Below, piece by piece: positions 4,550 through 41,150 of a stretch of 64,000 nt of DNA (positions are counted from its first letter, which is position 1; every line of letters begins with the position of its first letter). The stretch is taken from positions 480,001-544,000 of the forward strand of contig CP010425.1 of the NCBI GenBank assembly GCA_000830295.1. Reading direction: 5' to 3'. The stretch comes from an archaeon GW2011_AR15. GTDB taxonomy: Archaea > Nanobdellota > Nanobdellia > Woesearchaeales > GW2011-AR15. A model generated the notes under the pieces. It was not told the origin of the DNA and ran no database searches. It saw only the letters and a program-made list of their open reading frames with translations. The position numbers and the translations under genes were made by a program.

Positions 4550-4639
4550 ATACGGGGGTGGGAAAATCAAATATATAAACGTATCGTATAAAGTAGGATA
4601 AGGGTAAGATATTTATATAATCTGCATTACCAGAGAGCC
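4550..4639. promoter_or_regulatory. Back-to-back TATA promoters with intervening ~10-11-bp-period direct repeats
   Basis: TTTATATA on - at ~4572-4579 and TTTATATA on + at 4612-4619, each ~22-30 nt before its ATG. GTAGGATA (4593-4600) and GTAAGATA (4604-4611) lie between them. Confidence 0.6.
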
Positions 4640-5911: not shown

Positions 5912-5990
5912 TTTTTCACCTATAAAATCCTCCTTTCTACATATATTTTAAAGACAAGATATTTAAACAAGAGTATTTTAATTTTGAAAA

Positions 5991-7598: not shown

Positions 7599-7604
7599 GG
7601 CAAC

Positions 7605-8534: not shown

Positions 8535-8569
8535 CTTTATTTAATAAATACACAAACAACTTTTTAAGT

Positions 8570-9331: not shown

Positions 9332-9375
9332 ATTAATAACACCGTTTCTCCTTATTTTTATAGATATCTTATTTA

Positions 9376-9846: not shown

Positions 9847-9904
9847 ATTAACAGGTTAACCATATGTATAAATAAAGTTTATAAAGATTTCTTAATTATC
9901 TTGG

Positions 9905-10738: not shown

Positions 10739-10746
10739 ATCTTTTA

Positions 10747-11541: not shown

Positions 11542-11563
11542 TCTATGCTTTCAGTTCCAACAA

Positions 11564-12661: not shown

Positions 12662-12690
12662 GTTTCAACACCTAAAACCATCACTATCGT

Positions 12691-14127: not shown

Positions 14128-14147
14128 AATAGCATTCCAACCCCGCC

Positions 14148-15203: not shown

Positions 15204-15295
15204 CCTATTAAGGTGTTAAATTAGTTAATAATCTATATACTTTTTGTTTTTTAAAAGATAAAGCTTAAAATTAGAACAGGTTTCTCTATTATAGT

Positions 15296-16549: not shown

Positions 16550-16555
16550 CTTCCT

Positions 16556-18106: not shown

Positions 18107-18107
18107 G

Positions 18108-18980: not shown

Positions 18981-19015
18981 GGCCAGAAATATATCAAATT
19001 TCTATAAAAAACCTT

Positions 19016-20080: not shown

Positions 20081-20159
20081 ACTTTGCAAGATATGGTGTT
20101 TTTTATTAAACCTTTCTATAGCAGGTAAATATTTAAGTGGCTAATTTATTACTGGTTAC

Positions 20160-21347: not shown

Positions 21348-21381
21348 GATTTAAATAATGTTTTAGGTTTAGGTTTTTCAG

Positions 21382-22350
21382 ATGCAAAAAGTGCTTGTAA
21401 TCGGGGGTGCAGGATTCATTGGGTCTTTTATAGCAAGAGCCTTAGTTGAAAGAAAAATAGATGTTACAATATTTGACTCCTTTTACCAATATCTTCCAAA
21501 ACTTGTTCCTGACGAAAATAAGATACTGGCACAGGAAAATAGGTTTAAGGATATAGAAGGCAAAATTAAGGTTATTAGGGGCAATGCTGCAAATTATGGA
21601 GAAGTAAGGAGGGCAATTGAAGAGCAGGACCCGGACTGCATAATACACCTTGCAGGACTCCCATTAGCGAACAAATCGAATATCTATATCGAAGAATCGC
21701 TTGAGGGTGTGAAAGCTACAGGATGCATACTGCAGGTCATAAAAGACACAGGAAAGAAAATAAAATTTATCTACACCTCGTCAAGCACAGTGTACGGCGA
21801 TTTTGTATATCAGCCGGCAGATGAGGATCACCCCAAAAATCCGAGGGGAGTATATGCAGGGGTTAAGCTTGCAGGAGAACATATTACCTCATCATTCTGC
21901 CGCCAGTTTAACATTTCATATGTAATAATCAGGCCGAGCGGAGTTTATGGGCCGACAGACATAAATGAAAGGGTTGTGCAGAAATTCATAGAAAATGCAA
22001 TTGAGGGAAAGGAGATTGTCGTAAAAGACCCGACAAATATGATAGACTTCACATATGTGAAAGACCTTGCCGAAGGATATGCCCTTGCAGTTATAAAAGA
22101 AGAAGCCAATAACGAAACTTTTAACATTACTTGCGGCCAGGGAAGAACACTTGGTGAGCTTGCAGAGATAATAAAGAAGCATTTCCCGAAAACTAAATTG
22201 AAGATTGATGAGGCAGACAAAGACCTTCCAAGAAGAGGCGGGCTTAGCATAGAGAGAGCGAAAAAGAAGCTTGGGTATGTACCAAAATATCCACTCGAAA
22301 AAGGAATTGAGGAATATATTGTGTATTATAAGAGAAATGTCAGAAAATAA
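21382..22350 (+). CDS. NAD-dependent epimerase/dehydratase
   Basis: GGAGFIG, SSSTVYG, YAGVK, RPSGVYGP and DFTYVKD motifs. Confidence 0.9.
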   Translation: MQKVLVIGGAGFIGSFIARALVERKIDVTIFDSFYQYLPKLVPDENKILAQENRFKDIEGKIKVIRGNAANYGEVRRAIEEQDPDCIIHLAGLPLANKSNIYIEESLEGVKATGCILQVIKDTGKKIKFIYTSSSTVYGDFVYQPADEDHPKNPRGVYAGVKLAGEHITSSFCRQFNISYVIIRPSGVYGPTDINERVVQKFIENAIEGKEIVVKDPTNMIDFTYVKDLAEGYALAVIKEEANNETFNITCGQGRTLGELAEIIKKHFPKTKLKIDEADKDLPRRGGLSIERAKKKLGYVPKYPLEKGIEEYIVYYKRNVRK

Positions 22351-23479
22351 AGTACCATTATGCAGGCCAGAAATTGGAGAAAAAGAGATAGAGGAGATAA
22401 AAAGAGTTCTGGATTCCGGCTGGCTGGCGCATGGTCCCAAGGTAAAAGAATTTGAAAAAAAATTTGCCGAATATATCGGTGTGAAGTATGCGGTTTCCCT
22501 CAATTCCTGTGCATCAGCCCTTCAGGCTGCAATAATGGCAAAAAACCTGAAGGGAGAGATAATTCTTCCTTCTTTTACCTTTCCTGCCTCAGCCAATGCA
22601 ATAATCAATGCAGGATGTATTCCAGTATTTGCAGAGATAAGAAAAGACACAATGAACATAGATATTTCCGATGTAGAGAAGAAAATCACTTTAAGAACAG
22701 TTGGCATAATGCCAGTCCATTTTGCAGGTCAAAGCTGTGAAATGGATAAGATAATGGAGCTTGCAAAAAAACACAATATGACGATCATAGAAGATTCTGC
22801 AGAAGCAATAGGAACAACATATACTGGCAAAAAAACAGGAGCTTTTGGAGAGGGATGTTTTAGCTTTTACCCGACAAAAAATATAACCACGGCAGAGGGA
22901 GGCATGGTTACCACAAACAGCAAAGAAACTGCCGAGATGGTACAGACTATAAGGGGGCACGGAGTAAGCAAGGGCGCATATGAAAGGGAACATGCTGAAA
23001 AGCCATGGATAAGAATGGCAACAATGCCGGGATATAATTTCAGGATGAATGAGATACAGGCCGTGCTTGGTATTGAACAATTGAAAATCCTGGATGAACT
23101 CAATGAAAAGAGAAGAAAGAATGCTCAATATCTGAACCGAGGATTATCTCGGTATAGGGAAATAACAACACCATATGAAGATAAGAAAGGAAAGCACACA
23201 TACCAGATGTATGTAATTCAGCTTGATGAAAAAATAGATAGGGATGCTTTTGTAATATATTTGAGAAATAACGGCGTGGAAGCAAATGTCCATTTCTTTC
23301 CCGGAGTCCATCAGCATCCGTATTATGAAAAAACATTTGGGAAAAAGAGTCTGCCAGTAACAGAATCAATTTCTAGAATAGTTGCTACACTACCGATGTT
23401 TCCATCGATGACAAAGAAGCAAATGGATATAATAATTGAGAAAGTTGGAGAAGCCCTGAAAACAGCAAGATGGCATTAA
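22337..23479 (+). CDS. DegT/DnrJ sugar aminotransferase
   Basis: PVHFAGQ, EDSAEA, SFYPTKNITTAEGG and GYNFRM motifs. Start placed at MSENK. Confidence 0.92.
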   Translation: MSENKVPLCRPEIGEKEIEEIKRVLDSGWLAHGPKVKEFEKKFAEYIGVKYAVSLNSCASALQAAIMAKNLKGEIILPSFTFPASANAIINAGCIPVFAEIRKDTMNIDISDVEKKITLRTVGIMPVHFAGQSCEMDKIMELAKKHNMTIIEDSAEAIGTTYTGKKTGAFGEGCFSFYPTKNITTAEGGMVTTNSKETAEMVQTIRGHGVSKGAYEREHAEKPWIRMATMPGYNFRMNEIQAVLGIEQLKILDELNEKRRKNAQYLNRGLSRYREITTPYEDKKGKHTYQMYVIQLDEKIDRDAFVIYLRNNGVEANVHFFPGVHQHPYYEKTFGKKSLPVTESISRIVATLPMFPSMTKKQMDIIIEKVGEALKTARWH

Positions 23480-23910
23480 TCATAAAAGAAATTGACGTTG
23501 ATATTACAAAAACACAGTTTGAGCATATTAAAAATCTTCTGATACAGCTTTATCCGAAAAATATGCCGCTCAGCTATCAGAGTTACAGAAATACACTCTT
23601 GGAAAATAAAATACGTGTTTTTTCAGCAGAAGAAAATAACAGAATAATAGCTATTGCAACATTAGTCATCTATAAGAAGCTTGGTGGCATTGTTGCGACT
23701 ATAGAAGATGTAGTAGTTGATAATTCAGAAAGAGGAAAAGGCGTAGGCACAAAACTGACCAGAAAACTGCTTGAAGAGGCAAAAAAAGCAGGGGTTAATT
23801 TTGTGGATGTAAACACAAGAAGACCGGATGCAAAGGCATTCTATGAGAAGTTGGGATTTACAGATAAAACGAAAGATAGGCCATTTTATTCGCTGAGATA
23901 TTATTTTTGA
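23470..23910 (+). CDS. GNAT N-acetyltransferase (GNA1-like)
   Basis: IEDVVVDNSERGKGVG (motif A) and FYEKLGF. Confidence 0.88.
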   Translation: MALIIKEIDVDITKTQFEHIKNLLIQLYPKNMPLSYQSYRNTLLENKIRVFSAEENNRIIAIATLVIYKKLGGIVATIEDVVVDNSERGKGVGTKLTRKLLEEAKKAGVNFVDVNTRRPDAKAFYEKLGFTDKTKDRPFYSLRYYF

Positions 23911-23947
23911 GAAACAATTTATAAATTTTGACATACTTCGGCTTCTT

Positions 23948-24418
23948 ATGAACTTGTTAAATTCAGAAATAATAGAAAAAACGCTGCAGGAAGCAAGAAA
24001 GTCAGAGAGGGGAAGAGCCATATTTTGTTTTCACAAAAAAACAGACGGACTTCAGAGAATGGTAAATGCGGTTCTGAAAGAGACATATTTAAGGCCGCAT
24101 AAGCATGAAAATCCAGATAAACTCGAGATTTTCTCTATAGTGAAAGGAAAAGTGGCAATTTTAACCTTTGACGATTCCGGAAGAATAAACGAAAAAAGGA
24201 TACTTGATGAAAACGACGAGATAAAAATAGCAGAAATCCCACCAAAAACATGGCATAATTTCGTTGTACTAAGCAAAGAAGCAGTGCTATATGAGATTAT
24301 TGATGGTAAATACAACCCAAAGACGCATAAAAAAGAAGCTAAATGGGCTCCTGAAGAAAACACACCAGCAGCAAAGATTTATCTAACTAGATTAAGGAAA
24401 GAGACCAACAATGGTTAA
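23948..24418 (+). CDS. WbuC-family cupin-fold metalloprotein
   Basis: QRMVNA, YLRPHKH..PDKLE, IPPKTWH, YEI..G.Y and AKWAPEE motifs. Confidence 0.85.
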   Translation: MNLLNSEIIEKTLQEARKSERGRAIFCFHKKTDGLQRMVNAVLKETYLRPHKHENPDKLEIFSIVKGKVAILTFDDSGRINEKRILDENDEIKIAEIPPKTWHNFVVLSKEAVLYEIIDGKYNPKTHKKEAKWAPEENTPAAKIYLTRLRKETNNG

Positions 24419-25589
24419 AAAGATGTATATATTGGCTCAGGGATTTGCTGAAAACGGCGGAAGCTTTTTTGGTTTTGTTGAGGAAATTGCCAAGGCATTT
24501 TCAGGAAAGAGGTATGCAGTCAAAATCCTGTGCAGAAAGATGCAAAAAGCCGAAAAAAATTATGAGAGATTTTCATACGCAGAGGTCTACAGATTTCAGT
24601 TTTCCAAATTTCCATTCTTCAATGCAATTGCAGAAGAGCTGCTCTTCGCTTTCAAAGTAAACAGCTTCCTTAAGAAAGACAATTTTCAAGAAGGAGAGAT
24701 TATAATAGCAAATGGGCTTACGCCACTTGGACTGAAGAAAAGATATATTCTCAGAGCACCTGACCAACCTGTACTTACATTTCTCAAAAATATGGCCTTG
24801 GCGTCAAAATATACTCCATTTATTTCCAGAATAGCAAGAGCACTTCATTTTCACATTTTTTACTTCATGGATAAAAGAGTAATAAGAAATGCCACTGCAG
24901 TGATATATTCATCAGAAGCAAACAGACAAGAAAACATAAAACAATATGGCGTTGTTGGGAAACCGTACTTCATCCCAAACAAAGGCATTGACATATCTTA
25001 TTTTAAACATATTCCAAAAAAGAAAAAATCAAGAAAATTACTGTTTGTTGCTCACCGAGATGAGAAAATAAGGAAAGGAGCAATATATCTTGAGAGAATA
25101 TTGCCAAAACTATTTACAAAGTATCCCGATGCGGAGCTCACACATGTTGGAGAAAAATCTCTTTGGGATGTGCCTGATTGGTGCAGAAAAAGAATAAACT
25201 CAACCGGTAAAGTACCAAAAGATAAAATGAGAGAATACTACATGGCATCAGACATACTTGTGTTTTGTGCTCTCAACGAGGGAATTCCGGCAACGATAAT
25301 GGAAGCAATGGCGTCAAAACTGCCTATTGTAACCAGTGATATAGAAGGCGTTGGAGAATATATCGAGCATATGAAAGGAGGGTATATTTACAAAAGAGGA
25401 GATGCAAAAGGATTGTTGTCCGGAATTTCATATATGTTGGATAATCCTGAAAAAAGCATGAAAATGGCAGAGAATTCTTTTGAAAAAATAAAATCTCTTG
25501 ATAGTAAGAAATATTATCCTCTTCTTTTGAAATTTGCTGAAGATATATATGCAGGCAAACCAGAGAGTAAAGATATACTTAACTCATAA
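24411..25589 (+). CDS. Glycosyltransferase family 4, paralogue of 20160..21347
   Basis: EKIRKG, WCRKRINSTG and EGIPATIMEAMAS. Confidence 0.9.
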   Translation: MVKKMYILAQGFAENGGSFFGFVEEIAKAFSGKRYAVKILCRKMQKAEKNYERFSYAEVYRFQFSKFPFFNAIAEELLFAFKVNSFLKKDNFQEGEIIIANGLTPLGLKKRYILRAPDQPVLTFLKNMALASKYTPFISRIARALHFHIFYFMDKRVIRNATAVIYSSEANRQENIKQYGVVGKPYFIPNKGIDISYFKHIPKKKKSRKLLFVAHRDEKIRKGAIYLERILPKLFTKYPDAELTHVGEKSLWDVPDWCRKRINSTGKVPKDKMREYYMASDILVFCALNEGIPATIMEAMASKLPIVTSDIEGVGEYIEHMKGGYIYKRGDAKGLLSGISYMLDNPEKSMKMAENSFEKIKSLDSKKYYPLLLKFAEDIYAGKPESKDILNS

Positions 25590-25626
25590 AATGATCATAC
25601 GTTTAGAAAACAGGGGAAACAACAAT

Positions 25627-26628
25627 TTATTGATTCAGCTCACCTTTTATTATTCTTGTAGATGACAGTCCAGGCAGAAGCTTTACAATGTGGATGCTCC
25701 CGCCATGTTTCTTTATGGTAGACGCTTCCACGCAATCCTTGCCGTATTCTGACCCATTTACATGGACATCGGGTCTTATTTTTTCCAAGAGCCTGACAGG
25801 CGTGGTTTCGTTGAACACAGTTACATAATCTACTTCCATGTAGTTAGCCATCATTTTTTGCCGGGACAATTCATTGTTTAATGGCCTGTCATTGCCCTTG
25901 TTCTGCCTGACAGAGGAATCAGAATTGACAGCTATTATAAGCACATCTCCCTGTTTTTTTGCCTCTGAGACTATATAATCATGACCCTCATGGAGAATAT
26001 CAAAGGTGCCATTCAGTGTAACAATTCTTTTTCCTGTGCTTTTTAATTTGATTGAAATCTCTACTAATTTTTTGCTGTCTACGATTTTGTCATAATCAGA
26101 GAATTTAAGGAAGTCAGCGGCTCTTGACAGATTCCCGGCGATGTAGCTTGGATTTTTTTCTCTGGCTACTGCTAATTGCGATGGACCGAGGCCAGTCAGC
26201 AAAAAAACAGATTTCATTCCAGAATTAATGCCCAGCACAATATCTGAGGCTTTGTCGCCTATGACCCATGAAGAAACCAAATCCAGTTGATATTTGTCTC
26301 TGGCATCACGGATCATTTTTGGCTTTGGCTTCCTGCATGCGCAATTGTCTTCTGGAGCATGGGGGCAGAAATATACCCTTTCTATATTGATATTGTGTGC
26401 AGACAGCACATGCAATAATTTATTGTTATAGGATTCCATATCTTCTTTTGAAAAAATCCCCCTGGCTATGCCGCTTTGGTTTGTGACAATGAAAAGTTTA
26501 TATGTTTTTAACTTTTCTAATCCTTCTATGACACCTGGAAGAAGGGCAAAATCCTCAACTCGGTGAGAAAAACCAATGTCTCTGGTTAATGTTCCATCCC
26601 TGTCAAGAAACACAGCGCTATTGCTCAT
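25627..26628 (-). CDS. Fusion: heptose-1,7-bisphosphate phosphatase (GmhB) + heptose-1-phosphate adenylyltransferase (HldC/RfaE-II)
   Basis: N-terminal FLDRDGTL, TNQSGIARG, CPH...CACRKP and GDKASD. C-terminal NGTFDILHEGH, NSDSSVRQNKG..RP, FNETTP and GLSST. Confidence 0.9.
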   Translation of the reverse strand: MSNSAVFLDRDGTLTRDIGFSHRVEDFALLPGVIEGLEKLKTYKLFIVTNQSGIARGIFSKEDMESYNNKLLHVLSAHNINIERVYFCPHAPEDNCACRKPKPKMIRDARDKYQLDLVSSWVIGDKASDIVLGINSGMKSVFLLTGLGPSQLAVAREKNPSYIAGNLSRAADFLKFSDYDKIVDSKKLVEISIKLKSTGKRIVTLNGTFDILHEGHDYIVSEAKKQGDVLIIAVNSDSSVRQNKGNDRPLNNELSRQKMMANYMEVDYVTVFNETTPVRLLEKIRPDVHVNGSEYGKDCVEASTIKKHGGSIHIVKLLPGLSSTRIIKGELNQ

Positions 26629-27583
26629 TTTTCAGGCTTTGACGAAGCTCATCAAGCATCACAGGAGCAGTGCCTATTTTAGTGACTTTCACGCCAGCAC
26701 AATGGTTGGAAATTATTGCAGCATCATAAAGCGCTGCTCCAGAAGCGATAGATAATGCAAGTGCAGCAACAGCGGTGTCGCCAGCACCAGACACATCAAA
26801 AACTTCTTTTGCCAGGGTTGGTATCTGAATTATGCTTTTTCCCTTTTCAAAAATTGCCATTCCTTTTGCTCCTAGTGTGATTATTACATTGCTTTGGAAT
26901 AGCTCTATCAACTTATTTCCTGCCCTTTGCAGATCCTCAGGATTATCAAGATGGATGCCTGTCATCTCCTCTGCTTCCTTCCTGTTGGTCTTGATAAGGT
27001 AGGCGCCTTTGAAATAATTCTTGTGTCTGGGCTTCGGATCCGCAATTAAAGGAATATTTTTCTTGTTACAATAACTGACTAATTCTGATGCAAGTTGCTG
27101 GGTCAATACCCCTTTAGCATAATCCGAGACTATCACTGCATCTGGATTATTAATCCCGACGGCATTTAATACCAACTTCTTGCTTATCCCATGCTCAATC
27201 GGCTCTCTTGATTCATAATCTATCCTTACTATCTGCTGTTTCTGGCCAATTACCCTGATTTTCTGGGTCGTGGGCCTGTTAGATGAAAAAACTACGCCCC
27301 CGACATCAATGTGATTTTCGTCAGCACATTTCATAAATATATCTTTAGCAGCATCCTGCCCTAAAACACCCAATAAAAATGCCTTGCCGGAGAGCGTCAC
27401 GATATTGTTTGCAGTATTGGCAGCGCCCCCTAGCACATATTTCTCGTCACTGACATCGATAATGGGAACTGGAGCCTCCTGGGAAATCCTGTCTGCTCCT
27501 CCAAAAATATATTTATCAAGCATCAGGTCGCCTACTACCAGAATCCTTTTTTTAGAGAATTCCTTTAGATATTTTTCATACAT
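26618..27583 (-). CDS. hldA: D-glycero-beta-D-manno-heptose-7-phosphate kinase (RfaE domain I)
   Basis: GDLMLDKY, RISQEAPVP, GGAANTA, SDYAKG, DPK and EVFDVSGAGDT (PfkB) motifs. Confidence 0.93.
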   Translation of the reverse strand: MYEKYLKEFSKKRILVVGDLMLDKYIFGGADRISQEAPVPIIDVSDEKYVLGGAANTANNIVTLSGKAFLLGVLGQDAAKDIFMKCADENHIDVGGVVFSSNRPTTQKIRVIGQKQQIVRIDYESREPIEHGISKKLVLNAVGINNPDAVIVSDYAKGVLTQQLASELVSYCNKKNIPLIADPKPRHKNYFKGAYLIKTNRKEAEEMTGIHLDNPEDLQRAGNKLIELFQSNVIITLGAKGMAIFEKGKSIIQIPTLAKEVFDVSGAGDTAVAALALSIASGAALYDAAIISNHCAGVKVTKIGTAPVMLDELRQSLKNEQ

Positions 27584-28469
27584 GTATCATCACTGAATAT
27601 TCTTTTATAGCATCGGCAAGCTTATGCACAGCCTTGAATCCCAGGTATTTCTCAGCTCTATGTGTATCAGCCTGTGTGTGCATCTGATATGTTTTAAGGT
27701 CATATGGAACATCTATGTATTCCGGCTCAATATCTGTTCCCAGTGCCTCTTGTATCATGCTGTATAGTTCCTTGAATGATGTTGCTATGCCTGTGCCCAC
27801 ATTATAGATCCCGGCCCGGGAATCCAGTGCCAAAAGATTTGCCCTTACAACATCTTTGACATAAATATGGTCCCTCTTCTGTTCGCCCCACTTGAAAAGC
27901 TTTGGCTTTTTGCCTTCTTTAATCTGCCTAATCAGGTGGTAAATCATGGAGGCCGGCCTTCCTTTGTGGAGCTCATTTGGGCCGAAAACATTAAAATACC
28001 TCAAACCAACAATGTGCATATCATCAAAATGGTATGTAGCCATCTCGTCCATAATCAGTTTTGACTGGGCGTAAGCGCTTTGTATATCCTTTTCCTGATC
28101 TTCTTTTTGCGGAGTCGGGCTGTTCCCGTATATGCTGGCACTTGAGGCGTAGATAAGTTTTGCATTGCTACCTTTTGCCAATTTAAGCATATTCTTGAAT
28201 CCGTTGATATTTTTCCTAATGGTTTCTTCATCATTTCCATATCTTGGGTCAGTAATTGCTGCCTGGTGGAATATTGCATCAAATTTTTCTTTTATTGACA
28301 ACTGGCCTGACAGGTCTTCATTAATGAATTTTCCTTTCAACCCTTTCAGATTATCTTCATGGCCGGAAAGCAAATTATCAATTACAACTACCGAATGCCC
28401 CAGCTTCTCAATCTCGAGTGCAATATTTGATCCTATGAAACCTGCCCCGCCTGTGACAAGACATTTCAT
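27576..28469 (-). CDS. hldD: ADP-L-glycero-D-manno-heptose 6-epimerase
   Basis: TGGAGFIGSN, FHQAAITD, YASSAS.YG, YAQSK, GLRYFNVFGPNELHKG..ASM and YQ.HTQAD motifs. Confidence 0.88.
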   Translation of the reverse strand: MKCLVTGGAGFIGSNIALEIEKLGHSVVVIDNLLSGHEDNLKGLKGKFINEDLSGQLSIKEKFDAIFHQAAITDPRYGNDEETIRKNINGFKNMLKLAKGSNAKLIYASSASIYGNSPTPQKEDQEKDIQSAYAQSKLIMDEMATYHFDDMHIVGLRYFNVFGPNELHKGRPASMIYHLIRQIKEGKKPKLFKWGEQKRDHIYVKDVVRANLLALDSRAGIYNVGTGIATSFKELYSMIQEALGTDIEPEYIDVPYDLKTYQMHTQADTHRAEKYLGFKAVHKLADAIKEYSVMIHV

Positions 28470-29029
28470 TTTAAAGCTTCCCTCTCAACAAGTTCACAGA
28501 TAATGTGGTAGGCTGTCATATGGCATTCCTGAATTCTTGCAGTCTCTTTTGCCGGGCAATTTATATTATAATCACTCATTGCCTTAAGTTTCCCGCCGTC
28601 CCTTCCAGTCAGAGAGATATTTACAGTCCCTATTTCCTTTCCCCTGGCAAAGGCATTGAGTACATTTTGAGAATTTCCAGAGGTGGATATGCCAAGCAAT
28701 ATATCTGAAGGAGATGCAAGCGCCTCAACCTGGCGCGAGAAAACCCGATTATAATCATAGTCGTTTGATACAGCAGTCAATATTGAACTGTCTGTGGTCA
28801 AAGCAATTGCAGGCAGGCCCTTTCTTTCAAGCTTGTATCTTCCGACAAGCTCCGCAGCAATATGCTGTGAATCAGCAGCCGAGCCCCCGTTTCCGAATAT
28901 CAGAATTTTATTGCCTCTCATTAATGCCTCACTGATTACATTGCTTATCTTCTCAAGCATGTCTGCCTGGCTGAAAAGCTCATTCTTGGCAGCGATAGAT
29001 TCCTGAATAATATCTTTAATTGATTGCAT
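28466..29029 (-). CDS. gmhA: Sedoheptulose-7-phosphate isomerase
   Basis: GNGGSAADSQHIAAELVGRY, NDY, STSGNS.N and TARIQECH motifs. Start placed at MQSIKD. Confidence 0.96.
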   Translation of the reverse strand: MQSIKDIIQESIAAKNELFSQADMLEKISNVISEALMRGNKILIFGNGGSAADSQHIAAELVGRYKLERKGLPAIALTTDSSILTAVSNDYDYNRVFSRQVEALASPSDILLGISTSGNSQNVLNAFARGKEIGTVNISLTGRDGGKLKAMSDYNINCPAKETARIQECHMTAYHIICELVEREALK

Positions 29030-29141
29030 GGGCAGAAAGAGGCGGGTTTTATTTATATAACTTTTTGTATTTTTCGAACCGACCCCGTCGTTTAAATAAC
29101 CCACCCCAAAATATTTAAAACCATTAAATATTATAAGCGGA

Positions 29142-30923
29142 ATGAAACAAAAGATTTTATTCGGTGCAGCATATTCAATTATTGAGCCGCTCGGTCTTTT
29201 GCATCTGGGTGGATTGGCTAGGGATTTAGGGTTTGAAACGGATTATTGCTTGGTCAAAAACCAGGAGTATTCAGAGTTCCATGATAAAGTAAAAGCTGAA
29301 AAGCCAGATTTCGTAGGATTTAATGTATATACGGGCAATCACCTCAGCCTTTACAAATATCTTGGACTCCTAAAAAAAGAATTCCCTAAAATCAAGACCA
29401 TACTTGGCGGGCCCCATTCCAGCTATTTCCCTTATGAAGCTGTCAAGCATGCAGATTATGTGGTGATGAGCGAAGGCTTCACAGGACTTAAGCAGATACT
29501 CCTGGGAGAGGCTGCCAAGGGAGTGATTCCGCCGGCAAGGGAGAGTTTTACATTTCCAATTCCCGACAGAAAAAAATTCTATTCCTTGTATCCAAAGCAT
29601 GGCAGTAGCCCAATAAAAAGCATAATTACGATGACGGGCTGCCCTTTCAGGTGCACCTATTGCTACAATAGCTCAAATATCGAAGATGTAACTTCCGGCC
29701 TTTCTAAAGAAGTACTGCTCAAATTTGACAAGTCCAGGCTGCCAGGAAGGCTGTTCGCCTGGAATATAAGGACTGTGGATGCTGTGATTCAGGAGGCTAT
29801 AGAACTTGTTAAGAATTATCCGACAAAAATGATATATTTCCAGGATGATGTTTTTGGTATGAAACTCAAATGGCTTGAGGAATTTGCAAAGAGATGGCCA
29901 AAAGAAGTAGGCATCAAATGGCATGCGCAGATGAGGTGGGAAATGACTGTAGGAGAGAGCGGGTGCCAGAGGCTGGATTTGTGCAAATCTGCAGGATGCA
30001 GCGGACTCACCCTGGCAATAGAAGCTGCTGATCCTGTGATGAGGGCAGAAGTGCTGGACAGAACAATGCCGCAGGAAATGATCTTTGAAGGAATGAAAAA
30101 CTGCACAGACAGGGGACTTATGATAAGGACTGAGCAGATAACCGGCCTGCCGTATGGTGCAACAAGCGCACCCACAAAAATAAACCTTGGCGCAGACCTG
30201 CAGATTCTTGAATTGAATGTCAGGTTGAGGGAAAATACAGGCGGACCCCATATTGCATGGGCATCCACTTTTGTGCCTTATGCAAGGACAAGGCTCGGCA
30301 TATATTCAACAAACTACGGATTTTACGGCAATCCCGGAGACGAAAACTGGGACATCAAGGATACTTTTTTCGAGAAAAGTGTGTTAAAATTTCTGAAAAA
30401 CTATGTTGGCCCGGAGCTCAAAGAAAAGAAAAATTTGCAGGATTTGTGGCTTTCGGGGCAAGAGCTCGAACAATACAGAAACCAAAATGCGCAACTTAGG
30501 CATCATTTCAATGTATTTGCATACCTTGACAAAGGCCACGAGTTTGCTGAAAAATACATTAAGCGTGGTGAATACACCTTTGAAGCTCTTGGAGAGATGG
30601 TGAGGGACTGGCAAAAGCACAAAATCAGCAAGGAAGATGAGAAGAAGTTTATATCTAAAATCTCTCAATATATAAAAACCGAATCACAGAAAAAATCAGT
30701 TGTTTCGCTGGCCCCATATTTGATGTCTGTGCCTTATCCAGAAGAACTGGCAAGACGCTTCCTAAATTATGCTGAAAAAAAGGGACATGAGATGAGTGTA
30801 TTGAGCGATGCTGTGAGGCATCATCTATATGATTATGTTGTGTATCAGGTTGAAGCACCATCAGATACGTCATCATCCTATTCAATCAAATTGCCTGGCT
30901 CTGCAATTTCTTATGAATGCTGA
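29142..30923 (+). CDS. Cobalamin-binding-domain radical SAM protein
   Basis: EPLGLLHL...GGPH...EG (B12-binding domain), GCPFRCTYC (CxxxCxxC), FQDD and GLPY. Confidence 0.88.
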   Translation: MKQKILFGAAYSIIEPLGLLHLGGLARDLGFETDYCLVKNQEYSEFHDKVKAEKPDFVGFNVYTGNHLSLYKYLGLLKKEFPKIKTILGGPHSSYFPYEAVKHADYVVMSEGFTGLKQILLGEAAKGVIPPARESFTFPIPDRKKFYSLYPKHGSSPIKSIITMTGCPFRCTYCYNSSNIEDVTSGLSKEVLLKFDKSRLPGRLFAWNIRTVDAVIQEAIELVKNYPTKMIYFQDDVFGMKLKWLEEFAKRWPKEVGIKWHAQMRWEMTVGESGCQRLDLCKSAGCSGLTLAIEAADPVMRAEVLDRTMPQEMIFEGMKNCTDRGLMIRTEQITGLPYGATSAPTKINLGADLQILELNVRLRENTGGPHIAWASTFVPYARTRLGIYSTNYGFYGNPGDENWDIKDTFFEKSVLKFLKNYVGPELKEKKNLQDLWLSGQELEQYRNQNAQLRHHFNVFAYLDKGHEFAEKYIKRGEYTFEALGEMVRDWQKHKISKEDEKKFISKISQYIKTESQKKSVVSLAPYLMSVPYPEELARRFLNYAEKKGHEMSVLSDAVRHHLYDYVVYQVEAPSDTSSSYSIKLPGSAISYEC

Positions 30924-31002: not shown

Positions 31003-32079
31003 ATGATGAAGAAAATCCTGATATTAAATCTGGTGCCGAACACAATAGGTGATTCTATCTTGATGACCCCTATGTTCACTACAATAAAGAAAAACTATCC
31101 AGATTCTTTCCTTGCCGCTACAGCAGACAGGCTCACCAGGGATTTGTGGCTTAATAATAAGGAGATTGATAAGACAATACTTGTAAAAGAACTGGAGACT
31201 ATTGGCAATCACAATGCAGGCAAATTAAAAAAAGCCTATGCATACTTTAGAATGTTTTTCCGATTGATACGACAAATAAGGGCAGAGAGATTTGATGCCT
31301 GCTTCATAGCTTACCCCAATTTTTTTCTAATGCCCCTAATCCCCTATCTGGCGGGAATCAAAACAAAGGTAGGATATACCTACAAGGGATCTTATCTGGC
31401 TTTCCTTCTGACAAAAAAAACACCAAGCATGTTGCTTTTCGATGATTGCTACGATAGGCATATTGTTTACTCCTTTATGGACCTACTTAAGGCTGCAGGG
31501 CTATCTTATTCAGAATCTGATATAGTGCCCCGGATTTTGGTCTCGGAAAAGGAATTGTCTGCAGCCAGAAAAAAACTGAAGAAATTTAAAAGACTCATAT
31601 CCGTGCACGCCTTATCAAAGATTGTCTCAAAAAACTGGCCAAAAGAAAAATTCAGGGAACTACTGCCGATTCTCGCAAAAAAATATAATGCGACAATCCT
31701 GCTGTTCGGCTCAAAAGGAGAATTTGGATACAACGAGGAGATAAAAGGCAGTTCAGAGCAGATTGTCAATTTATGCGGACAATGCAGCATCAGGGAAACT
31801 GCTGCCCTGATAAAGCTTAGTGATTTATTTATCGGAAATGATTCCGGGCTTGGTCATATTGCCTCAAGTGTCGGGACAAATACAATCTCGTTGTTCGGCT
31901 CCACGGATCCAGTGCAGGCAAAGCCCATTGGTCCCGGAAAAGTGATTGTAATATTCAAAAATAACAGGAAAAACTTATTCCATTATTACAAGACTGGAAG
32001 AATTGAGCTGGATATTGAGTCTATGAACAGCATAACAGTTAGGGATGTTCTTGCCGCAGTAAAGACGTTTCTGGGTTAA
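31003..32079 (+). CDS. Glycosyltransferase family 9 (heptosyltransferase-like)
   Basis: IGDSILMTP, KNWP.EKF, NLCGQCSIRETAALI and FIGNDSGLGHIA motifs. Confidence 0.92.
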   Translation: MMKKILILNLVPNTIGDSILMTPMFTTIKKNYPDSFLAATADRLTRDLWLNNKEIDKTILVKELETIGNHNAGKLKKAYAYFRMFFRLIRQIRAERFDACFIAYPNFFLMPLIPYLAGIKTKVGYTYKGSYLAFLLTKKTPSMLLFDDCYDRHIVYSFMDLLKAAGLSYSESDIVPRILVSEKELSAARKKLKKFKRLISVHALSKIVSKNWPKEKFRELLPILAKKYNATILLFGSKGEFGYNEEIKGSSEQIVNLCGQCSIRETAALIKLSDLFIGNDSGLGHIASSVGTNTISLFGSTDPVQAKPIGPGKVIVIFKNNRKNLFHYYKTGRIELDIESMNSITVRDVLAAVKTFLG

Positions 32080-32110: not shown

Positions 32111-33079
32111 ATGAAGATATTTATAGTAGACATGCTTGGATGCAGGAAGCCCTATCTCGGTTATCAGATTGAATCTGCCTTCAAGCAACTGAAACATGAG
32201 ACAAAGACATTTGATTATAGGGCATTCAAGTTTCAGCATCTTCCGCTGACAAATTTTCTGCTGAATAAATTGATGGTTCTGCAGGCAAAATCATGGAAAC
32301 CCGACTTGGTAGTCGTAAATAAAGGTGAATCCATTCTCAGAGGCACTATCTCCGACATAAAGAAAGAAGGCATAAAGACAGTCAACTGGAATCCAGACGA
32401 GCCGTTTGGGCTGTTGCAAGCCTTCAATAAAATCCAGAACCTAGAGGAGTATGATGCCTGCTTCAATTATGATACGCAATATATTGAGCCAATGAAGGAG
32501 ATTAATCCGAATTCCTATCATCTTCCTCCCGGTGCCGATCCATCATATGTCCACAAAGAACAGATTCCTCTAAAGCAAAGGAGATATCCTGCTGATATCT
32601 GTATGGTTGGGACTGCTTATCCTAATAGGATCAGCCTGCTGTCAAAATTAGAAAGATATACGATGAAGGTTGCAGGTCCGGGCTGGGATAAAGCGCCGAG
32701 AAATATTTCAGAGAACTCCTTGCCATATGTTGATAATATTGAGATGGTCAGGCTATTCAATGAATCAAAGATAGTACTTAACCCGTATGGCTCATCAAAA
32801 AACTTCATTTGCCCTAATCCAAGAACTTTTGAAATACCTGCATCACGTTCTTTTGAACTCACGGATATGCCCAGAGAAACCAAAAAATATTTTACTCCCA
32901 AAAAAGAATTTGTTGTCTACAGAGATGAAAAAGAATTTGTGGAGCTTGTAGAATATTATACAGAGAACAAAGAGGAAAGAGAGAAAATTGCCGAAGCCGG
33001 GTATAAGAGAGTATTAAAAGAGCACACAATGAAGCACAGAGTCAAGAGTCTTCTGGGTACTCTAAAGAGATCAGATTAA
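32111..33079 (+). CDS. CgeB/YkvP-like glycosyltransferase
   Basis: WNPDEP, VGTAYPNR, SKIVLN, NPRTFEI and HTM.HR motifs. Confidence 0.82.
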   Translation: MKIFIVDMLGCRKPYLGYQIESAFKQLKHETKTFDYRAFKFQHLPLTNFLLNKLMVLQAKSWKPDLVVVNKGESILRGTISDIKKEGIKTVNWNPDEPFGLLQAFNKIQNLEEYDACFNYDTQYIEPMKEINPNSYHLPPGADPSYVHKEQIPLKQRRYPADICMVGTAYPNRISLLSKLERYTMKVAGPGWDKAPRNISENSLPYVDNIEMVRLFNESKIVLNPYGSSKNFICPNPRTFEIPASRSFELTDMPRETKKYFTPKKEFVVYRDEKEFVELVEYYTENKEEREKIAEAGYKRVLKEHTMKHRVKSLLGTLKRSD

Positions 33080-34192
33080 CCTCTTATTCTTAAGCTCCCT
33101 ATAAGCCTTATCAACCATATCTTTTGCTTCCTGATCCCTTGACCAGTTTACAAGCTCTTCCATACCTTCTTTAAGGGTTATTTTAGGAGAATAATCAAGC
33201 TTAGACTTTATCTTTGATATGTCTGAGAAACAATGCCTTATATCGCCTTTCCTGAATTCACCCGGAAATTCCGGCTTTACATCAGAGCCGAATATGTCAA
33301 TAAGTGTTGCTGACAGCTCATTCAGGGTAATCTTATGCCCGGCCCCCACATTAAAAACCTGGCCGTTTGCAGCCTTTTTCTCCATTGACAGCACACAGCC
33401 CTGCACAATATCATGCACAGACACAAAATCCCTGCTCTGCTCCCCATCTTCAAATATTAGTGGGGGCTTGTTGTTCTTTATCCTGCTCATGAAAATAGCA
33501 GCAACACCAGTATAAGGGTTGCTAAGGCTCTGCCTTGGTCCGTATACATTGAAAAACCTCAGGGCAACAGAAGGAATGCCGTATGCTTCCCCTATGTTCA
33601 GGGTCATTTCCTCCTGGTTCTTCTTTGTTATTGCATATATGCTGCTGTTGGAGAGCGGCTTTGTTTCCTTTGTGCCTACTGGAGTAAGCTCTTTCCTGCA
33701 GTCAGGGCATGCAATATTCCACTGTTTTTTCTCAAGCTGTTCATTTGTTCTTCTGACATTATGGAATTCCCTGCCGCAGCTTTCGCATTTATAGCTTCCC
33801 TCCCCGTAAATGCTCATGCTGGAGGCAATAATCATTTTTTTGACGCTGTGCTCTTCATTGGCCATGGCATGAAGAAGGTTTGCAGTTCCCAGCTCATTAG
33901 CTTCAACATATTCCTTTACCTGATACATGGACTGCCCGACTCCGACACGCGCAGCGAGGTTGAAAACAACATCAGAATCAGAGACAAGCCCTTTGAGCTT
34001 CTCGTAATCAGCCATATCGCCCTTCACAAATTTGGCATCCTTGTTCAGGTAATCCGGAGTTTTCCCAAGATGAACCTGCGGCTCAAGACTGTCAAATATA
34101 GTGACTTCATGGCCTTTCTCTACAAGGTTGTCAACAAGAAATGAGCCTATGAAACCTGCTCCGCCGGTAACAAGTATCTTGTGCGTCATCAT
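33071..34192 (-). CDS. NAD-dependent epimerase/dehydratase with a CxxC...CxxC insert
   Basis: TGGAGFIG, ASSMSIYGEG, CESC...CPDC, YAITK and NPYTGVAAIF motifs. Confidence 0.9.
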   Translation of the reverse strand: MMTHKILVTGGAGFIGSFLVDNLVEKGHEVTIFDSLEPQVHLGKTPDYLNKDAKFVKGDMADYEKLKGLVSDSDVVFNLAARVGVGQSMYQVKEYVEANELGTANLLHAMANEEHSVKKMIIASSMSIYGEGSYKCESCGREFHNVRRTNEQLEKKQWNIACPDCRKELTPVGTKETKPLSNSSIYAITKKNQEEMTLNIGEAYGIPSVALRFFNVYGPRQSLSNPYTGVAAIFMSRIKNNKPPLIFEDGEQSRDFVSVHDIVQGCVLSMEKKAANGQVFNVGAGHKITLNELSATLIDIFGSDVKPEFPGEFRKGDIRHCFSDISKIKSKLDYSPKITLKEGMEELVNWSRDQEAKDMVDKAYRELKNKRLI

Positions 34193-34222
34193 ACCTGCTA
34201 AAAGTTAGGTAACTTATAAAGT

Positions 34223-41003: not shown

Positions 41004-41150
41004 ATCCGCTAAAGAAACCGGGATTTGTTTTAAGCTTTTTGCTTTTGGAAATTTTTTTTGTGCTTTTTGAGGAGTAACTATCATAGTCCCAAATAGTGGA
41101 AAAATATAAATACTATAGTGTCCTACAAAGGAAAAATGGGTGGTAGGTAT

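What the first reader, a model, noticed from the sequence alone, without database searches (positions are those of the whole stretch)
25627..29029. Complete ADP-L-glycero-D-manno-heptose operon in an archaeon
Seen: gmhA-hldD-hldA-(gmhB/hldC) overlap one another and cover all five steps. Known: this pathway makes the LPS inner-core precursor of Gram-negative bacteria, and ADP-heptose is the ALPK1 agonist. Archaea have no LPS, although heptose nucleotidyltransferases have been reported outside bacteria. Inference: heptose is incorporated into an S-layer/N-glycan or another surface polymer here. No Kdo or lipid A genes are present in the window.
Basis: partly seen in the sequence, partly recalled or inferred. 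Interest (0 to 1): 0.72.

Follow-up and report, generated by a model that had tools for sequence, protein, structure and literature searches.

The report
ADP-heptose sugar operon in a Woesearchaeota-like archaeon
A small groundwater archaeon really does carry all the genes for making the bacterial-type sugar ADP-heptose, next to an enzyme that would attach it to a surface glycan, but this has been seen in archaea before and is common in this lineage.

Summary

- **The locus is native and archaeal.** The genome is one 1.16 Mb contig with an archaeal 16S, and archaeal markers lie on both sides. Composition is typical of the genome. Contigs from other metagenome runs reproduce the junctions.
- **No LPS acceptor.** I found no Kdo or lipid A genes. 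Transketolase, transaldolase and AglB are present.
The genome's only GT9 heptosyltransferase lies 2 kb away, inside a roughly 38 kb glycan cluster. Beside the cluster is a surface protein with 55 N-glycosylation sequons.
- **Lineage-wide trait.** In 401 sampled genomes of the phylum, 92 carry HldA, and 86 of those 92 also carry GT9, against 35 of the 309 without HldA.

The most likely function is a heptose-containing surface glycan, probably protein-linked.

Novelty is low. Complete ADP-heptose clusters were reported in Thermoplasmatales in 2013 and in Methanococcus. Archaeal enzymes have been assayed (Tang 2024, seen here only through commentaries). A heptose is known in a Thermoplasma N-glycan. 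New here are the prevalence in this lineage, the GT9 linkage and the variety of domain fusions.

The parts
28466..29029 (-). gmhA, sedoheptulose-7-phosphate isomerase (187 aa from the ATG at 29029; the ORF list extends it to a GTG at 29104)
   Evidence: TIGR00441 218.2 bits, above cut-off 209.45. PDB 1tk9 1.1e-51, with the GNGGSAAD, ISTSG and IQECH stretches aligned.
27576..28469 (-). hldD, ADP-glycero-manno-heptose 6-epimerase (297 aa)
   Evidence: TIGR02197 276.7 bits, above cut-off 274.6. PDB 3sxp 8.7e-58, with the Y-x3-K stretch aligned. Overlaps gmhA by 4 nt.
26618..27583 (-). [quoted passage not shown]
   Evidence: TIGR02198 343.8 bits against cut-off 345, E 8.6e-103, model positions 2-314 of 315. 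PDB 4e84 1.6e-56. Overlaps hldD by 8 nt.
25627..26628 (-). gmhB::hldC fusion (333 aa). Residues 2-175 are the heptose-1,7-bisphosphate 7-phosphatase; residues 194-328 are the heptose-1-phosphate adenylyltransferase.
   Evidence: PRK08942 155 bits and TIGR02199 146.6 bits, both below the curated cut-offs. Pfam HAD plus CTP_transf_like. PDB 3l8e 7.6e-29 and 5x9q 1.6e-23. The sequence shows FLDRDGT, a C-x-H...C-x-C loop and FDILHEGH.
29030..29141 (.). 112-bp AT-rich divergent intergenic region between gmhA and the radical SAM gene, with TATA-like runs on both sides
   Evidence: Read directly. The promoter role is inferred.
29142..30923 (+). B12-binding radical SAM protein (593 aa), transcribed divergently from gmhA; an accessory gene that is not conserved with the operon
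   Evidence: PF02310 and PF04055; only weak NCBIfam matches. Absent at this position in the syntenic cluster of G013.
31003..32079 (+). GT9 (heptosyltransferase family) glycosyltransferase, the only one in the genome; proposed consumer of ADP-heptose
   Evidence: PF01075 2e-38. Single genomic hit. Nearest models are WaaF, WaaQ and WaaC, all below cut-off. PDB 1psw 1.6e-13 over residues 7-311. Co-occurs with HldA.
32111..37643 (.). Conserved partner block: a Glyco_trans_1_2 protein (32111-33079 +), a UDP-sugar 4-epimerase-like SDR (33071-34192 -) and three GT4 genes (34223-37643 -)
   Evidence: Pfam. PDB matches of the SDR are UDP-hexose/HexNAc 4-epimerases. 45-69% identical homologues lie in the same order beside the heptose genes in G013 (GT1_2, SDR, GT4_c, GT4_e); G006 has the GT1_2 and SDR homologues at 64% and 70%.
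37861..39621 (-). NodU-like carbamoyltransferase
   Evidence: PF02543 and PF16861; NodU model 165 bits, far below cut-off. 63-69% identical homologues lie near the heptose genes in G002, G003 and G364.
2670..25589 (.). Upstream part of the glycan cluster: nucleotide-sugar enzymes, GT2 and GT4 transferases, PMT_2 (GT-C), a Wzx-like flippase (16556-18106) and an N-formyl amino-sugar module
   Evidence: Pfam. GC is 0.32-0.38 over 6-26 kb against 0.425 for the genome.
41118..44108 (+). Candidate glycoprotein acceptor: a 996-aa surface protein with an N-terminal signal/anchor, Ig-like repeats, a PGF-pre-PGF domain and a C-terminal membrane anchor
   Evidence: TIGR04213 106 bits, above cut-off 28. 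55 N-x-S/T sequons against 23.8 +/- 3.9 in 500 shuffles (maximum 35), and against 0.47 per 100 aa in 12 other window proteins.

Best explanation

Proposed route:
1. Sedoheptulose-7-P from the transketolase/transaldolase pair is isomerised by GmhA.
2. The PfkB kinase HldA phosphorylates it at C1.
3. The GmhB half of the fusion removes the 7-phosphate.
4. The HldC half adenylylates the product.
5. HldD epimerises it at C6.
6. The neighbouring GT9 enzyme transfers the heptose onto a growing, probably dolichol-phosphate-linked, oligosaccharide built by the surrounding GT4/GT2 enzymes.
7. The Wzx-like protein flips the glycan, and AglB puts it on Asn residues of surface proteins such as the sequon-rich protein at 41118-44108.

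What is shown: gene identities, operon structure, native context, absence of the LPS acceptor pathway, and genomic linkage and co-occurrence of HldA with GT9. What is inferred: enzyme activities, the nucleotide used, the acceptor, and protein linkage.
For: Gene identities:
- Family and structure matches for all five activities, with catalytic or signature stretches present.
- Genes overlap by 4, 8 and 11 nt.

Native archaeal locus:
- One 1,157,790-bp contig, 96.8% complete, archaeal SSU at 1426 bits.
- Hef (896 bits), archaeal TopA (748 bits) and archaeal TyrRS (391 bits) all exceed their cut-offs and flank the cluster.
- Operon GC is 0.417 against 0.425 for the genome. Tetranucleotide correlation is 0.924 against a genome mean of 0.928.
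- Contigs from runs of other samples bridge both operon borders with 0 differences.

Substrate supply and glycosylation machinery:
- Transketolase, transaldolase and AglB are present.

Link to GT9:
- It is the only GT9 in the genome, 2 kb from gmhA.
- All 14 of 14 relatives (G000 included) with a strong HldA have GT9, against 4 of the 27 without. In 10 of the 14 it lies on the same contig within about 10 kb.
- In the phylum sample, 86 of 92 HldA-positive genomes have GT9, against 35 of 309 HldA-negative.
- The syntenic cluster in G013 keeps the fusion, HldA, HldD, GT9, GT1_2, SDR and GT4 genes at 45-69% identity.

Precedent (passages read): heptose in a Thermoplasma N-glycan (PMC11407970), and the same inference for Iplasma (PMC3750248).
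Against: - No enzyme activity or glycan chemistry is available for this organism.
- HldA is 1.2 bits below its curated cut-off, and both halves of the fusion are below theirs.
- The GT9 is below the cut-offs of all LPS heptosyltransferase equivalogs, so its donor and acceptor are unproven.
- No priming glycosyl-1-phosphate transferase was recognised in the window.
- 6 of 92 HldA-positive genomes have no GT9 hit, and 35 genomes have GT9 without HldA.
- G013, the closest cluster, has no detectable gmhA.
- Related genomes are not independent samples, so the co-occurrence overstates the support.
- AglB lies about 58 kb outside the window.
Confidence: 0.55

Rival explanations
1. The pathway and GT9 work as proposed, but the heptose ends up in a glycan that is not protein-linked, such as a membrane-anchored lipoglycan, capsule-like polymer or exopolysaccharide.
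For: The cluster has a Wzx-like MOP flippase and many transferases, as O-antigen and capsule loci do. A PMT_2/GT-C enzyme is present. AglB is not in the cluster. GT9 enzymes of known function act mostly on lipid-linked acceptors (recalled; the best matches are WaaF, WaaQ and WaaC).
Against: No Wzy-like polymerase or chain-length regulator was recognised. A surface protein with 55 sequons is adjacent. AglB is present in the genome.
Confidence: 0.25
2. The operon makes a different end product from the one named. Options are CDP- or UDP-heptose, or only the D,D-epimer. Alternatively the nucleotide-heptose serves a soluble or secondary-metabolite role rather than the envelope.
For: Some heptose nucleotidyltransferases also accept CTP or UTP (commentaries PMC11461863 and PMC11573728, passages). 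The HldC half scores below its equivalog cut-off. A B12-radical SAM gene of unknown role sits beside gmhA.
Against: The motif tied to NTP promiscuity, (F/L)XXGRSTT, reads LLPGLSST here, with no Arg (against PMC11573728). An HldD above its cut-off implies an ADP-heptose substrate. The context is a glycan cluster with GT9, not a natural-product cluster.
Confidence: 0.1
3. The genes are a decaying or silent relic of a bacterial transfer.
For: The pathway is bacterial in type, and the archaeal HldA clade sits among bacterial sequences. No RNA run was available.
Against: All four frames are intact with signature stretches. Composition is native. Homologues at 44-65% identity are kept in many genera. 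The genes are translationally coupled.
Confidence: 0.04
4. A bacterial fragment was mis-assembled or mis-binned into an archaeal contig.
For: None beyond the bacterial flavour of the pathway.
Against: The genome is a single 1.16 Mb contig with 0.67% contamination. Archaeal markers lie on both sides. Composition is typical. Contigs from other samples span 24295-26167, 28441-30156 and 30198-32676 with 0 differences, at even depth. The same genes occur in 92 of 401 genomes of the phylum.
Confidence: 0.01

Closest known systems
[quoted passage not shown]
   Same: The same five activities and the same enzyme families are present. It uses the beta/ADP branch: a PfkB kinase, a cytidylyltransferase-like nucleotidyltransferase, and HldD.
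   Different: - The host is an archaeon with no hit for kdsA, kdsB, waaA, lpxB or lpxC.
- The kinase stands alone, and the nucleotidyltransferase is fused to the phosphatase rather than to the kinase.
- All genes sit in one overlapping operon.
ADP-heptose gene clusters already reported in archaea: Iplasma (Thermoplasmatales; PMC3750248) and Methanococcus maripaludis KA1 and JJ (PMC12667266); archaeal heptose enzymes assayed by Tang et al. 2024 (via PMC11461863 and PMC11573728)
   Same: A complete pathway sits in a glycan-biosynthesis region of an archaeon, and was read as S-layer or N-glycan heptosylation.
   Different: - The lineage is different (Woesearchaeota-like DPANN).
- Linkage to GT9 is documented here.
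- The commentaries list three nucleotidyltransferase types (mono-domain, kinase/NT, isomerase/kinase/NT). The GmhB::HldC form is not among them. I could not see the original paper or its supplements.
LPS inner-core heptosyltransferases WaaC, WaaF and WaaQ (GT9)
   Same: It carries the Pfam GT9 domain and aligns end to end with WaaF (1psw). Aligned: IGD against WaaF's VGD, K-x-WP, and NDSGLxH; that these are donor-side or catalytic motifs is recalled.
   Different: It scores below every equivalog cut-off (117.6 against 134.6 for HepII). The Kdo-lipid A acceptor cannot exist in this genome.
GDP-D-glycero-alpha-D-manno-heptose pathway for S-layer glycans of Aneurinibacillus thermoaerophilus (cited in PMC3750248; details recalled)
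   Same: It supplies heptose for a surface-protein glycan in an organism without LPS.
   Different: That route uses a GHMP kinase and a GDP-forming transferase and has no HldD (recalled). Here the kinase is PfkB-type, the transferase is HldC-type, and HldD is present.
HldC::GmhB fusions of Patescibacteria (CPR)
   Same: The same two domains sit in one protein of about 335 aa. Paceibacteria are reported to encode the pathway (PMC9166423, passage).
   Different: The domain order is reversed: HldC then GmhB in P0112 and P0102, against GmhB then HldC in the window, in P0019 and in the Deltaproteobacteria-labelled P0057. This points to independent fusion events.

Membership tests
[quoted passage not shown] | GmhA: SIS-domain sedoheptulose-7-P isomerase | tested here: met
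   TIGR00441 218.2 bits, above 209.45; 1tk9 1.1e-51.
[quoted passage not shown] | HldA: PfkB-type heptose-7-P 1-kinase (beta branch) | tested here: met
   TIGR02198 343.8 bits, E 8.6e-103, full length, but 1.2 bits under the curated cut-off of 345. 4e84 1.6e-56.
[quoted passage not shown] | GmhB: HAD-IIIA heptose-1,7-bisphosphate 7-phosphatase | tested here: inconclusive
   PRK08942 155 bits against 178, and TIGR00213 140.5 against 149.6. The domain models TIGR01656 and TIGR01662 are above their cut-offs. 3l8e 7.6e-29. DxDGT and the Cys/His loop are present.
[quoted passage not shown] | HldC: heptose-1-P adenylyltransferase | tested here: inconclusive
   TIGR02199 146.6 bits against 181.5. HxGH is present. 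5x9q 1.6e-23. Nucleotide specificity is untested.
[quoted passage not shown] | HldD: ADP-heptose 6-epimerase | tested here: met
   TIGR02197 276.7 bits, above 274.6; 3sxp 8.7e-58.
[quoted passage not shown] | Conversion of sedoheptulose-7-P to ADP-L,D-heptose | not testable with these tools
   Needs an enzyme assay or complementation.
Bifunctional HldE | Kinase and adenylyltransferase in one polypeptide | tested here: not met
   The kinase is a 321-aa stand-alone protein, and the transferase domain is fused to GmhB.
STTR5-type promiscuous heptose nucleotidyltransferases | Motif (F/L)XXGRSTT with Arg at position 5 (as given in PMC11573728) | tested here: not met
   The sequence reads LLPGLSST.
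GT9 heptosyltransferases | Glyco_transf_9 domain | tested here: met
   PF01075 132.6 bits, above 22.
LPS heptosyltransferases I, II and III (WaaC, WaaF, WaaQ) | Score above the equivalog cut-off | tested here: not met
   117.6 against 134.6, 93.4 against 170.2, and 74.6 against 185.3.
LPS inner core | Kdo and lipid A biosynthesis present to provide the acceptor | tested here: not met
   No hit for WaaA, LpxC, KDO8P synthase, KdsB or LpxB in a genome that is 96.8% complete.
Archaeal N-glycosylation | AglB (STT3) oligosaccharyltransferase in the genome | tested here: met
   PF02516 126 bits at C1:421330-422700. It lies outside the window.

The most novel reading that the evidence does not exclude
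Woesearchaeota-like DPANN archaea took up an LPS-inner-core-type module (the L,D-heptose pathway plus a WaaF-like GT9, often with a NodU-like carbamoyltransferase), perhaps once. They re-aimed the GT9 at a non-Kdo acceptor to build a heptose-bearing, possibly carbamoylated, coat on their surface proteins. The module is now carried by about a quarter of the lineage and is swapped between members: the window's operon is not the version its congeners carry. Ultra-small CPR bacteria fused the same two enzymes independently. This hints that heptose glycans are a shared adaptation of episymbionts for attaching to, or being recognised by, hosts.
Probability: 0.15. Interest if true: 0.6.

Novelty: new member of a known kind. 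Interest (0 to 1): 0.3.

Why it matters
The case adds a well-supported, closed-genome example to the growing evidence that nucleotide-heptose synthesis is not confined to LPS-bearing bacteria.

- **How common it is.** The pathway is widespread in one DPANN phylum: 92 of 401 sampled genomes.
- **What consumes the sugar.** A GT9 glycosyltransferase nearly always accompanies the pathway, which gives a concrete candidate for the open question of why archaea make heptose. That question is raised in the commentaries on Tang et al. 2024.
- **A testable enzyme.** A GT9 that must work without Kdo-lipid A could be assayed directly for a new acceptor specificity.
- **Recurrent fusions.** The repeated, independent fusions (GmhB::HldC, HldC::GmhB, HldA::GmhA, HldA::HldC) suggest selection for passing intermediates between steps.

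None of this changes the known chemistry of the pathway.

Tried and rejected
- **Chimera or contamination:** rejected.
- **Recent transfer from bacteria into this genome:** not supported. Composition is native, and the archaeal HldA rows cluster together.
- **Donor lineage:** not resolved. The 12 archaeal HldA rows and one row from a truly bacterial contig (secretin and PilM on L058) form a group with 99% SH-aLRT support. That group sits in an unresolved comb of Nitrospirota, Thermodesulfobacteriota, Acidobacteriota and others. The 79 bacterial rows were the best of more than 600 pattern matches to an archaeal profile, so they are a biased sample.
- **Pseudomurein lead:** the 'Mur ligase' gene at 47270-48538 is FolC, so I dropped it.
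- **The conserved SDR at 33071-34192 as a second heptose-modifying enzyme:** its structure matches are ordinary UDP-hexose/HexNAc 4-epimerases, so there is no support.
- **Glyco_trans_1_2 protein at 32111-33079:** no PDB match at E 0.01.
- **RNA evidence:** no RNA holder was listed.
- **AU test of archaeal monophyly excluding L058:** not finished within the time limit and not repeated.
- **Literature gaps:** I found no paper on this pathway in Woesearchaeota or DPANN, on an archaeal GT9, or on a GmhB-HldC fusion. They cover open-access PMC and bioRxiv only, and Tang et al. 2024 and its supplements were not visible.
- **Not used:** no structure prediction or complex prediction was run, because no claim here depends on one.


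Full report
**What is there.** Between 25627 and 29029 the minus strand carries four ORFs. Successive genes overlap by 4, 8 and 11 nt.

NCBIfam names them as follows:
- GmhA: TIGR00441, 218.2 bits, cut-off 209.45.
- HldD: TIGR02197, 276.7 bits, cut-off 274.6.
- HldA: TIGR02198, 343.8 bits, cut-off 345, E 8.6e-103, full length.
- A 333-aa fusion. Residues 2-175 match GmhB (PRK08942, 155 bits, cut-off 178). Residues 194-328 match HldC (TIGR02199, 146.6 bits, cut-off 181.5).

Pfam agrees: SIS, Epimerase, PfkB, and HAD plus CTP_transf_like.

The best solved structures are the cognate enzymes:
- HldD: 3sxp, 8.7e-58.
- GmhA: 1tk9, 1.1e-51.
- HldA: 4e84, 1.6e-56.
- GmhB: 3l8e, 7.6e-29, and an HldC-like cytidylyltransferase, 5x9q, 1.6e-23.

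Signature stretches can be read in the alignments and in the translation. These are Y-x3-K in HldD, GNGGSAAD and IQECH in GmhA, and FLDRDGT, the Cys/His loop and FDILHEGH in the fusion.

The mechanical ORF list extends gmhA to a GTG at 29104.

**Is it archaeal and native?** The window is C1:480001-544000 of a genome held as a single 1,157,790-bp contig. The genome is 96.8% complete with 0.67% contamination, and has an archaeal SSU rRNA at 1426 bits.
- Archaeal markers above their curated cut-offs lie on both sides of the operon: archaeal-type TyrRS (391 bits) at 1.4-2.4 kb, archaeal topoisomerase I (748 bits) at about 51-53 kb, and Hef nuclease (896 bits) at 57.6-59.8 kb.
- Further archaeal-type genes are HerA, NurA, TrmB and an EMC3/TMCO1-like protein, and a PGF-pre-PGF surface protein.
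- GC of the operon is 0.417-0.418 against 0.425 for the genome. Its tetranucleotide correlation with the genome is 0.924, against a mean of 0.928 and a 5th percentile of 0.848.
- The 9-kb stretch around the operon is held at 0.89 or more of its sampled words by 9 groundwater or soil metagenome runs of 5 studies.
- I laid Logan contigs of four runs on 18001-38000. One run, which may be the source, has a 24.7-kb contig covering all of it with no difference.
- Runs of other samples have short contigs that bridge the borders with 0 differences at an even depth of about 4-9x. These span 24295-26167 (GT4 to fusion gene), 28441-30156 (hldD to gmhA, the intergenic region and the radical SAM gene) and 30198-32676 (radical SAM to GT9).
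- A chimeric assembly is therefore excluded for practical purposes.

**Lineage.**
- The nearest named HldA in the species-representative collection is from a 'Candidatus Woesearchaeota archaeon' MAG (L057, 48% identity).
- The nearest named homologues of the fusion protein are labelled Candidatus Woesearchaeota or Nanoarchaeota archaeon (52-54% identity).
- Relatives in the held genome set have 0.5-2.3 Mb genomes spread over very many families of one order.
- I read the organism as a Woesearchaeota-like DPANN archaeon. This rests on labels of homologues, not on a phylogenomic placement.

**Surroundings.**
- The operon sits inside a glycan-biosynthesis region that runs from about 2.7 to 41 kb.
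- The region holds five SDR epimerase/dehydratases beside HldD, two UDP-sugar dehydrogenases, GDP-mannose 4,6-dehydratase, two DegT aminotransferases, a formyltransferase, a GNAT, a WbuC cupin and two methyltransferase domains. It also holds one GT2 and five GT4 transferases, a PMT_2 GT-C enzyme, a Wzx-like flippase and a NodU-like carbamoyltransferase.
- A B12-binding radical SAM gene (29142-30923) is transcribed divergently from gmhA across a 112-bp AT-rich spacer.
- A GT9 gene (31003-32079; PF01075, 2e-38) follows it.
- It is the only GT9 in the genome.
- It aligns end to end with WaaF (1psw, 1.6e-13). It is nearest to the heptosyltransferase II, III and I models but below all their cut-offs.
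- Directly after the cluster lies a 996-aa protein with an N-terminal hydrophobic segment, Ig-like repeats, a PGF-pre-PGF domain (106 bits, cut-off 28) and a C-terminal membrane anchor.
- That protein has 55 N-x-S/T sequons. This compares with 23.8 +/- 3.9 (maximum 35) in 500 shuffles of its own residues, and with 0.47 per 100 aa in 12 other window proteins.

- Transketolase and transaldolase are present, so sedoheptulose-7-P can be supplied.
- AglB/STT3 is present at C1:421330-422700.
- WaaA, LpxC, KDO8P synthase, KdsB and LpxB gave no hit. Each search rang in E. coli and other diderm controls.
- I did not search LpxA, LpxD, LpxK or KdsC/D.

**Distribution.**
- Among G000 and 40 relatives, 14 genomes have an HldA hit of 200 bits or more. 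Four of the five congeners are among them.
- In an even sample of 401 high-quality genomes of the phylum, 92 (75 of 281 genera) have HldA at E <= 1e-50.
- The pathway is therefore a common trait of the lineage, not an oddity of this genome.

**GT9 travels with HldA.**
- All 14 of the 14 HldA-positive genomes of the first set have GT9, against 4 of the other 27.
- In 10 of the 14, the two genes lie on one contig within about 10 kb. In the other four they are on different contigs.
- In the phylum sample, 86 of 92 HldA-positive genomes have GT9 at E <= 1e-10, against 35 of 309 HldA-negative ones.
- The six exceptions are G111, G154, G178, G231, G311 and G366.
- Two genomes in these tallies (G266 and G377, both positive for both genes) are flagged unpublished. 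Without them the figures are 90 of 399 for HldA and 84 of 90 for GT9 among HldA-positive genomes.
- Related genomes are not independent, so I give no probability for the association.

**Architectures vary** (annotation by BLASTP against the window's genes).
- G013, in another genus of the same family, has a cluster syntenic with the window's. Identities are 54% for the fusion, 52% for HldA, 65% for HldD, 55% for GT9, 60% for Glyco_trans_1_2, 69% for the SDR, and 50% and 45% for two GT4 genes. It has no radical SAM gene and no detectable gmhA.
- The congeners G002 and G003, and G006 (same family), instead have a 510-aa HldA::GmhA fusion with separate HldC and GmhB.
- G033 has an HldE-like HldA::HldC fusion.
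- G034, G028, G364 and G274 have the kinase and the other recognised genes as separate ORFs; gmhA, gmhB or hldC was not recognised in some of the fetched stretches.
- Of the 95 HldA matches in the phylum sample, 32 lie in open frames of 440 aa or more, which means they are fused to something (32 of 93 without the two unpublished genomes).
- The full-length GmhB::HldC fusion was found in 7 of the 401 genomes: G000, G013, G074, G106, G290, G293 and G365.
- In the large protein collection, all 120 listed clusters of about 313-578 aa (the best of 6230 hits) carry the nucleotidyltransferase domain and a HAD-type domain.
- Two Patescibacteria-labelled examples have the opposite domain order (HldC then GmhB). 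The Woesearchaeota-labelled and the Deltaproteobacteria-labelled examples have the window's order.
- The two steps have therefore been fused at least twice.

**Phylogeny of HldA**. The tree has 91 rows: the window, 10 relatives and the 80 loci. It is a quick IQ-TREE with the PMSF model.
- The 12 archaeal rows and one bacterial row (L058) form a group with 99% SH-aLRT support.
- L058 is truly bacterial, because its contig also encodes a secretin and PilM.
- Inside that group the window pairs with G013 (97%), in a set of stand-alone kinases. Its congeners lie in a separate, 100%-supported set of HldA::GmhA fusions.
- Holding the window together with its three congeners costs 77 log-likelihood units (p-AU 0.009). 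The group was named after the tree was seen, so this p-value is indicative only.
- The operon version in this genome is thus not the one its genus mates carry. That fits exchange of glycan-cluster modules within the lineage.
- It also fits the low-GC island immediately upstream: 6-26 kb has GC 0.32-0.38 and tetranucleotide correlation 0.85-0.90.
- The bacterial neighbours of the archaeal group are unresolved, and the sample is biased, so no donor can be named.

**Most likely working.** The enzyme families define the beta/ADP branch. A PfkB kinase makes the beta-1,7-bisphosphate, GmhB removes the 7-phosphate, an HldC-type transferase adds AMP, and HldD inverts C6. This follows established knowledge of the pathway and is recalled; it is consistent with the family descriptions. 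The motif linked to CTP/UTP promiscuity, (F/L)XXGRSTT (PMC11573728, passage), reads LLPGLSST here. ADP-heptose is therefore the default expectation, although the commentary PMC11461863 notes the motif is not strictly required. With no Kdo-lipid A available, the GT9 must use another acceptor. The cluster's content, the flippase, AglB and the adjacent sequon-rich surface protein make a lipid-linked oligosaccharide destined for N-glycosylation the most economical reading. A glycan that is not protein-linked remains a serious alternative. All steps after gene identity are inference.

**Comparison with what is known.**
- Yelton et al. [quoted passage not shown]
- A 2025 study (PMC12667266, passages) describes ADP-heptose clusters in glycan regions of M. 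maripaludis KA1 and JJ.
- A 2024 review (PMC11407970, passage) notes a heptose isomer in the Thermoplasma acidophilum N-glycan.
- Two commentaries (PMC11461863 and PMC11573728, passages) summarise Tang et al. 2024. That work found heptose biosynthetic enzymes across archaea and showed archaeal sets make ADP-heptose in vitro. The commentaries state that the reason archaea make heptose is open, and suggest looking at neighbouring genes.
- Paceibacteria (CPR) are reported to encode the pathway (PMC9166423, passage).
- hldE was among the genes more highly expressed in the sediment-enriched fraction of ultra-small groundwater MAGs (PMC9938205, passage).
- My searches found no paper on the pathway in Woesearchaeota or DPANN, on an archaeal GT9, or on the GmhB-HldC fusion. 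They cover open-access texts only, and I could not see Tang et al. or its supplements, which may list these.

**Verdict.** The kind of system is already known in archaea. This is a new, clean member in a DPANN lineage. Three modest additions come from this work: the pathway is frequent there, it is tied to a GT9 transferase that cannot have its textbook acceptor, and its enzymes are fused in several independent ways.

Noticed in passing
window 29142-30923 (+): A B12-binding radical SAM protein (593 aa) is transcribed divergently from gmhA across a 112-bp spacer. It has only weak matches to class-B radical SAM methylase-like families. It is not conserved at this position in the syntenic cluster of G013, and a 24%-identical homologue lies near the heptose genes of G033. 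It could be a glycan C-methylase.
   Followed up: partly
window 41118-44108 (+): A 996-aa surface protein with Ig-like repeats, a PGF-pre-PGF domain and a C-terminal membrane anchor carries 55 N-x-S/T sequons (shuffles 23.8 +/- 3.9). It is a candidate S-layer or surface glycoprotein sitting right beside the glycan cluster.
   Followed up: partly
window 9376-15203: This stretch looks like a module for an N-formylated 4-amino-6-deoxy sugar. It holds GDP-mannose 4,6-dehydratase (14148-15203), a DegT aminotransferase (11564-12661) and a formyltransferase (10747-11541). FolD (9905-10738) and 5-formyl-THF cyclo-ligase (9376-9846) lie alongside and could supply the formyl donor. The sugar assignment is my inference from Pfam names and recalled pathways.
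   Followed up: no
window ~6000-26000: GC is 0.32-0.38 here against 0.425 for the genome, and tetranucleotide correlation is 0.85-0.90, near the genome's 5th percentile. This is probably an exchangeable glycan island. The heptose operon itself has typical composition.
   Followed up: partly
window 37861-39621 (-); L101 4991-6745, L103 12991-14856, L105 4348-6102: A NodU-like carbamoyltransferase recurs at 63-69% identity within a few kb of the heptose genes in G002, G003 and G364. Carbamoylated heptose is known in a bacterial LPS core (recalled), so the glycan may be carbamoylated.
   Followed up: partly
L101 8638-10170, L103 8180-9712, L104 8597-10129: Same-genus and same-family relatives encode a 510-aa HldA::GmhA (kinase-isomerase) fusion. 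The commentaries I read do not list this didomain among the nucleotidyltransferase-containing fusion types.
   Followed up: partly
L098 (G013:C1:198000-217000): The cluster closest to the window's has the fusion, hldA, hldD and GT9, but no gmhA was detected in the cluster or in the rest of that 97%-complete genome at E <= 1e-10. The source of its heptose-7-P is unexplained.
   Followed up: partly
proteins P0112 and P0102: Patescibacteria-labelled fusions of the same two domains have the reverse order (HldC N-terminal, GmhB C-terminal). This implies an independent fusion.
   Followed up: yes
L058 5971-6963: One HldA from a bacterial contig (labelled Fusobacteriaceae; it also carries a secretin and PilM) groups with the archaeal HldA clade at 99% SH-aLRT. 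The direction of any transfer is unknown.
   Followed up: partly
window 47270-48538 (-): The gene with Mur-ligase domains is FolC (TIGR01499, 304 bits), not a pseudomurein enzyme. Together with FolD and the cyclo-ligase, it shows the organism uses folate-type C1 carriers.
   Followed up: yes
window 50535-53087 (+) and 49824-50768 (-): The listed topoisomerase I ORF overlaps the NurA-like gene by about 230 nt. The family match begins at residue 112-116, so the true start is probably downstream.
   Followed up: no
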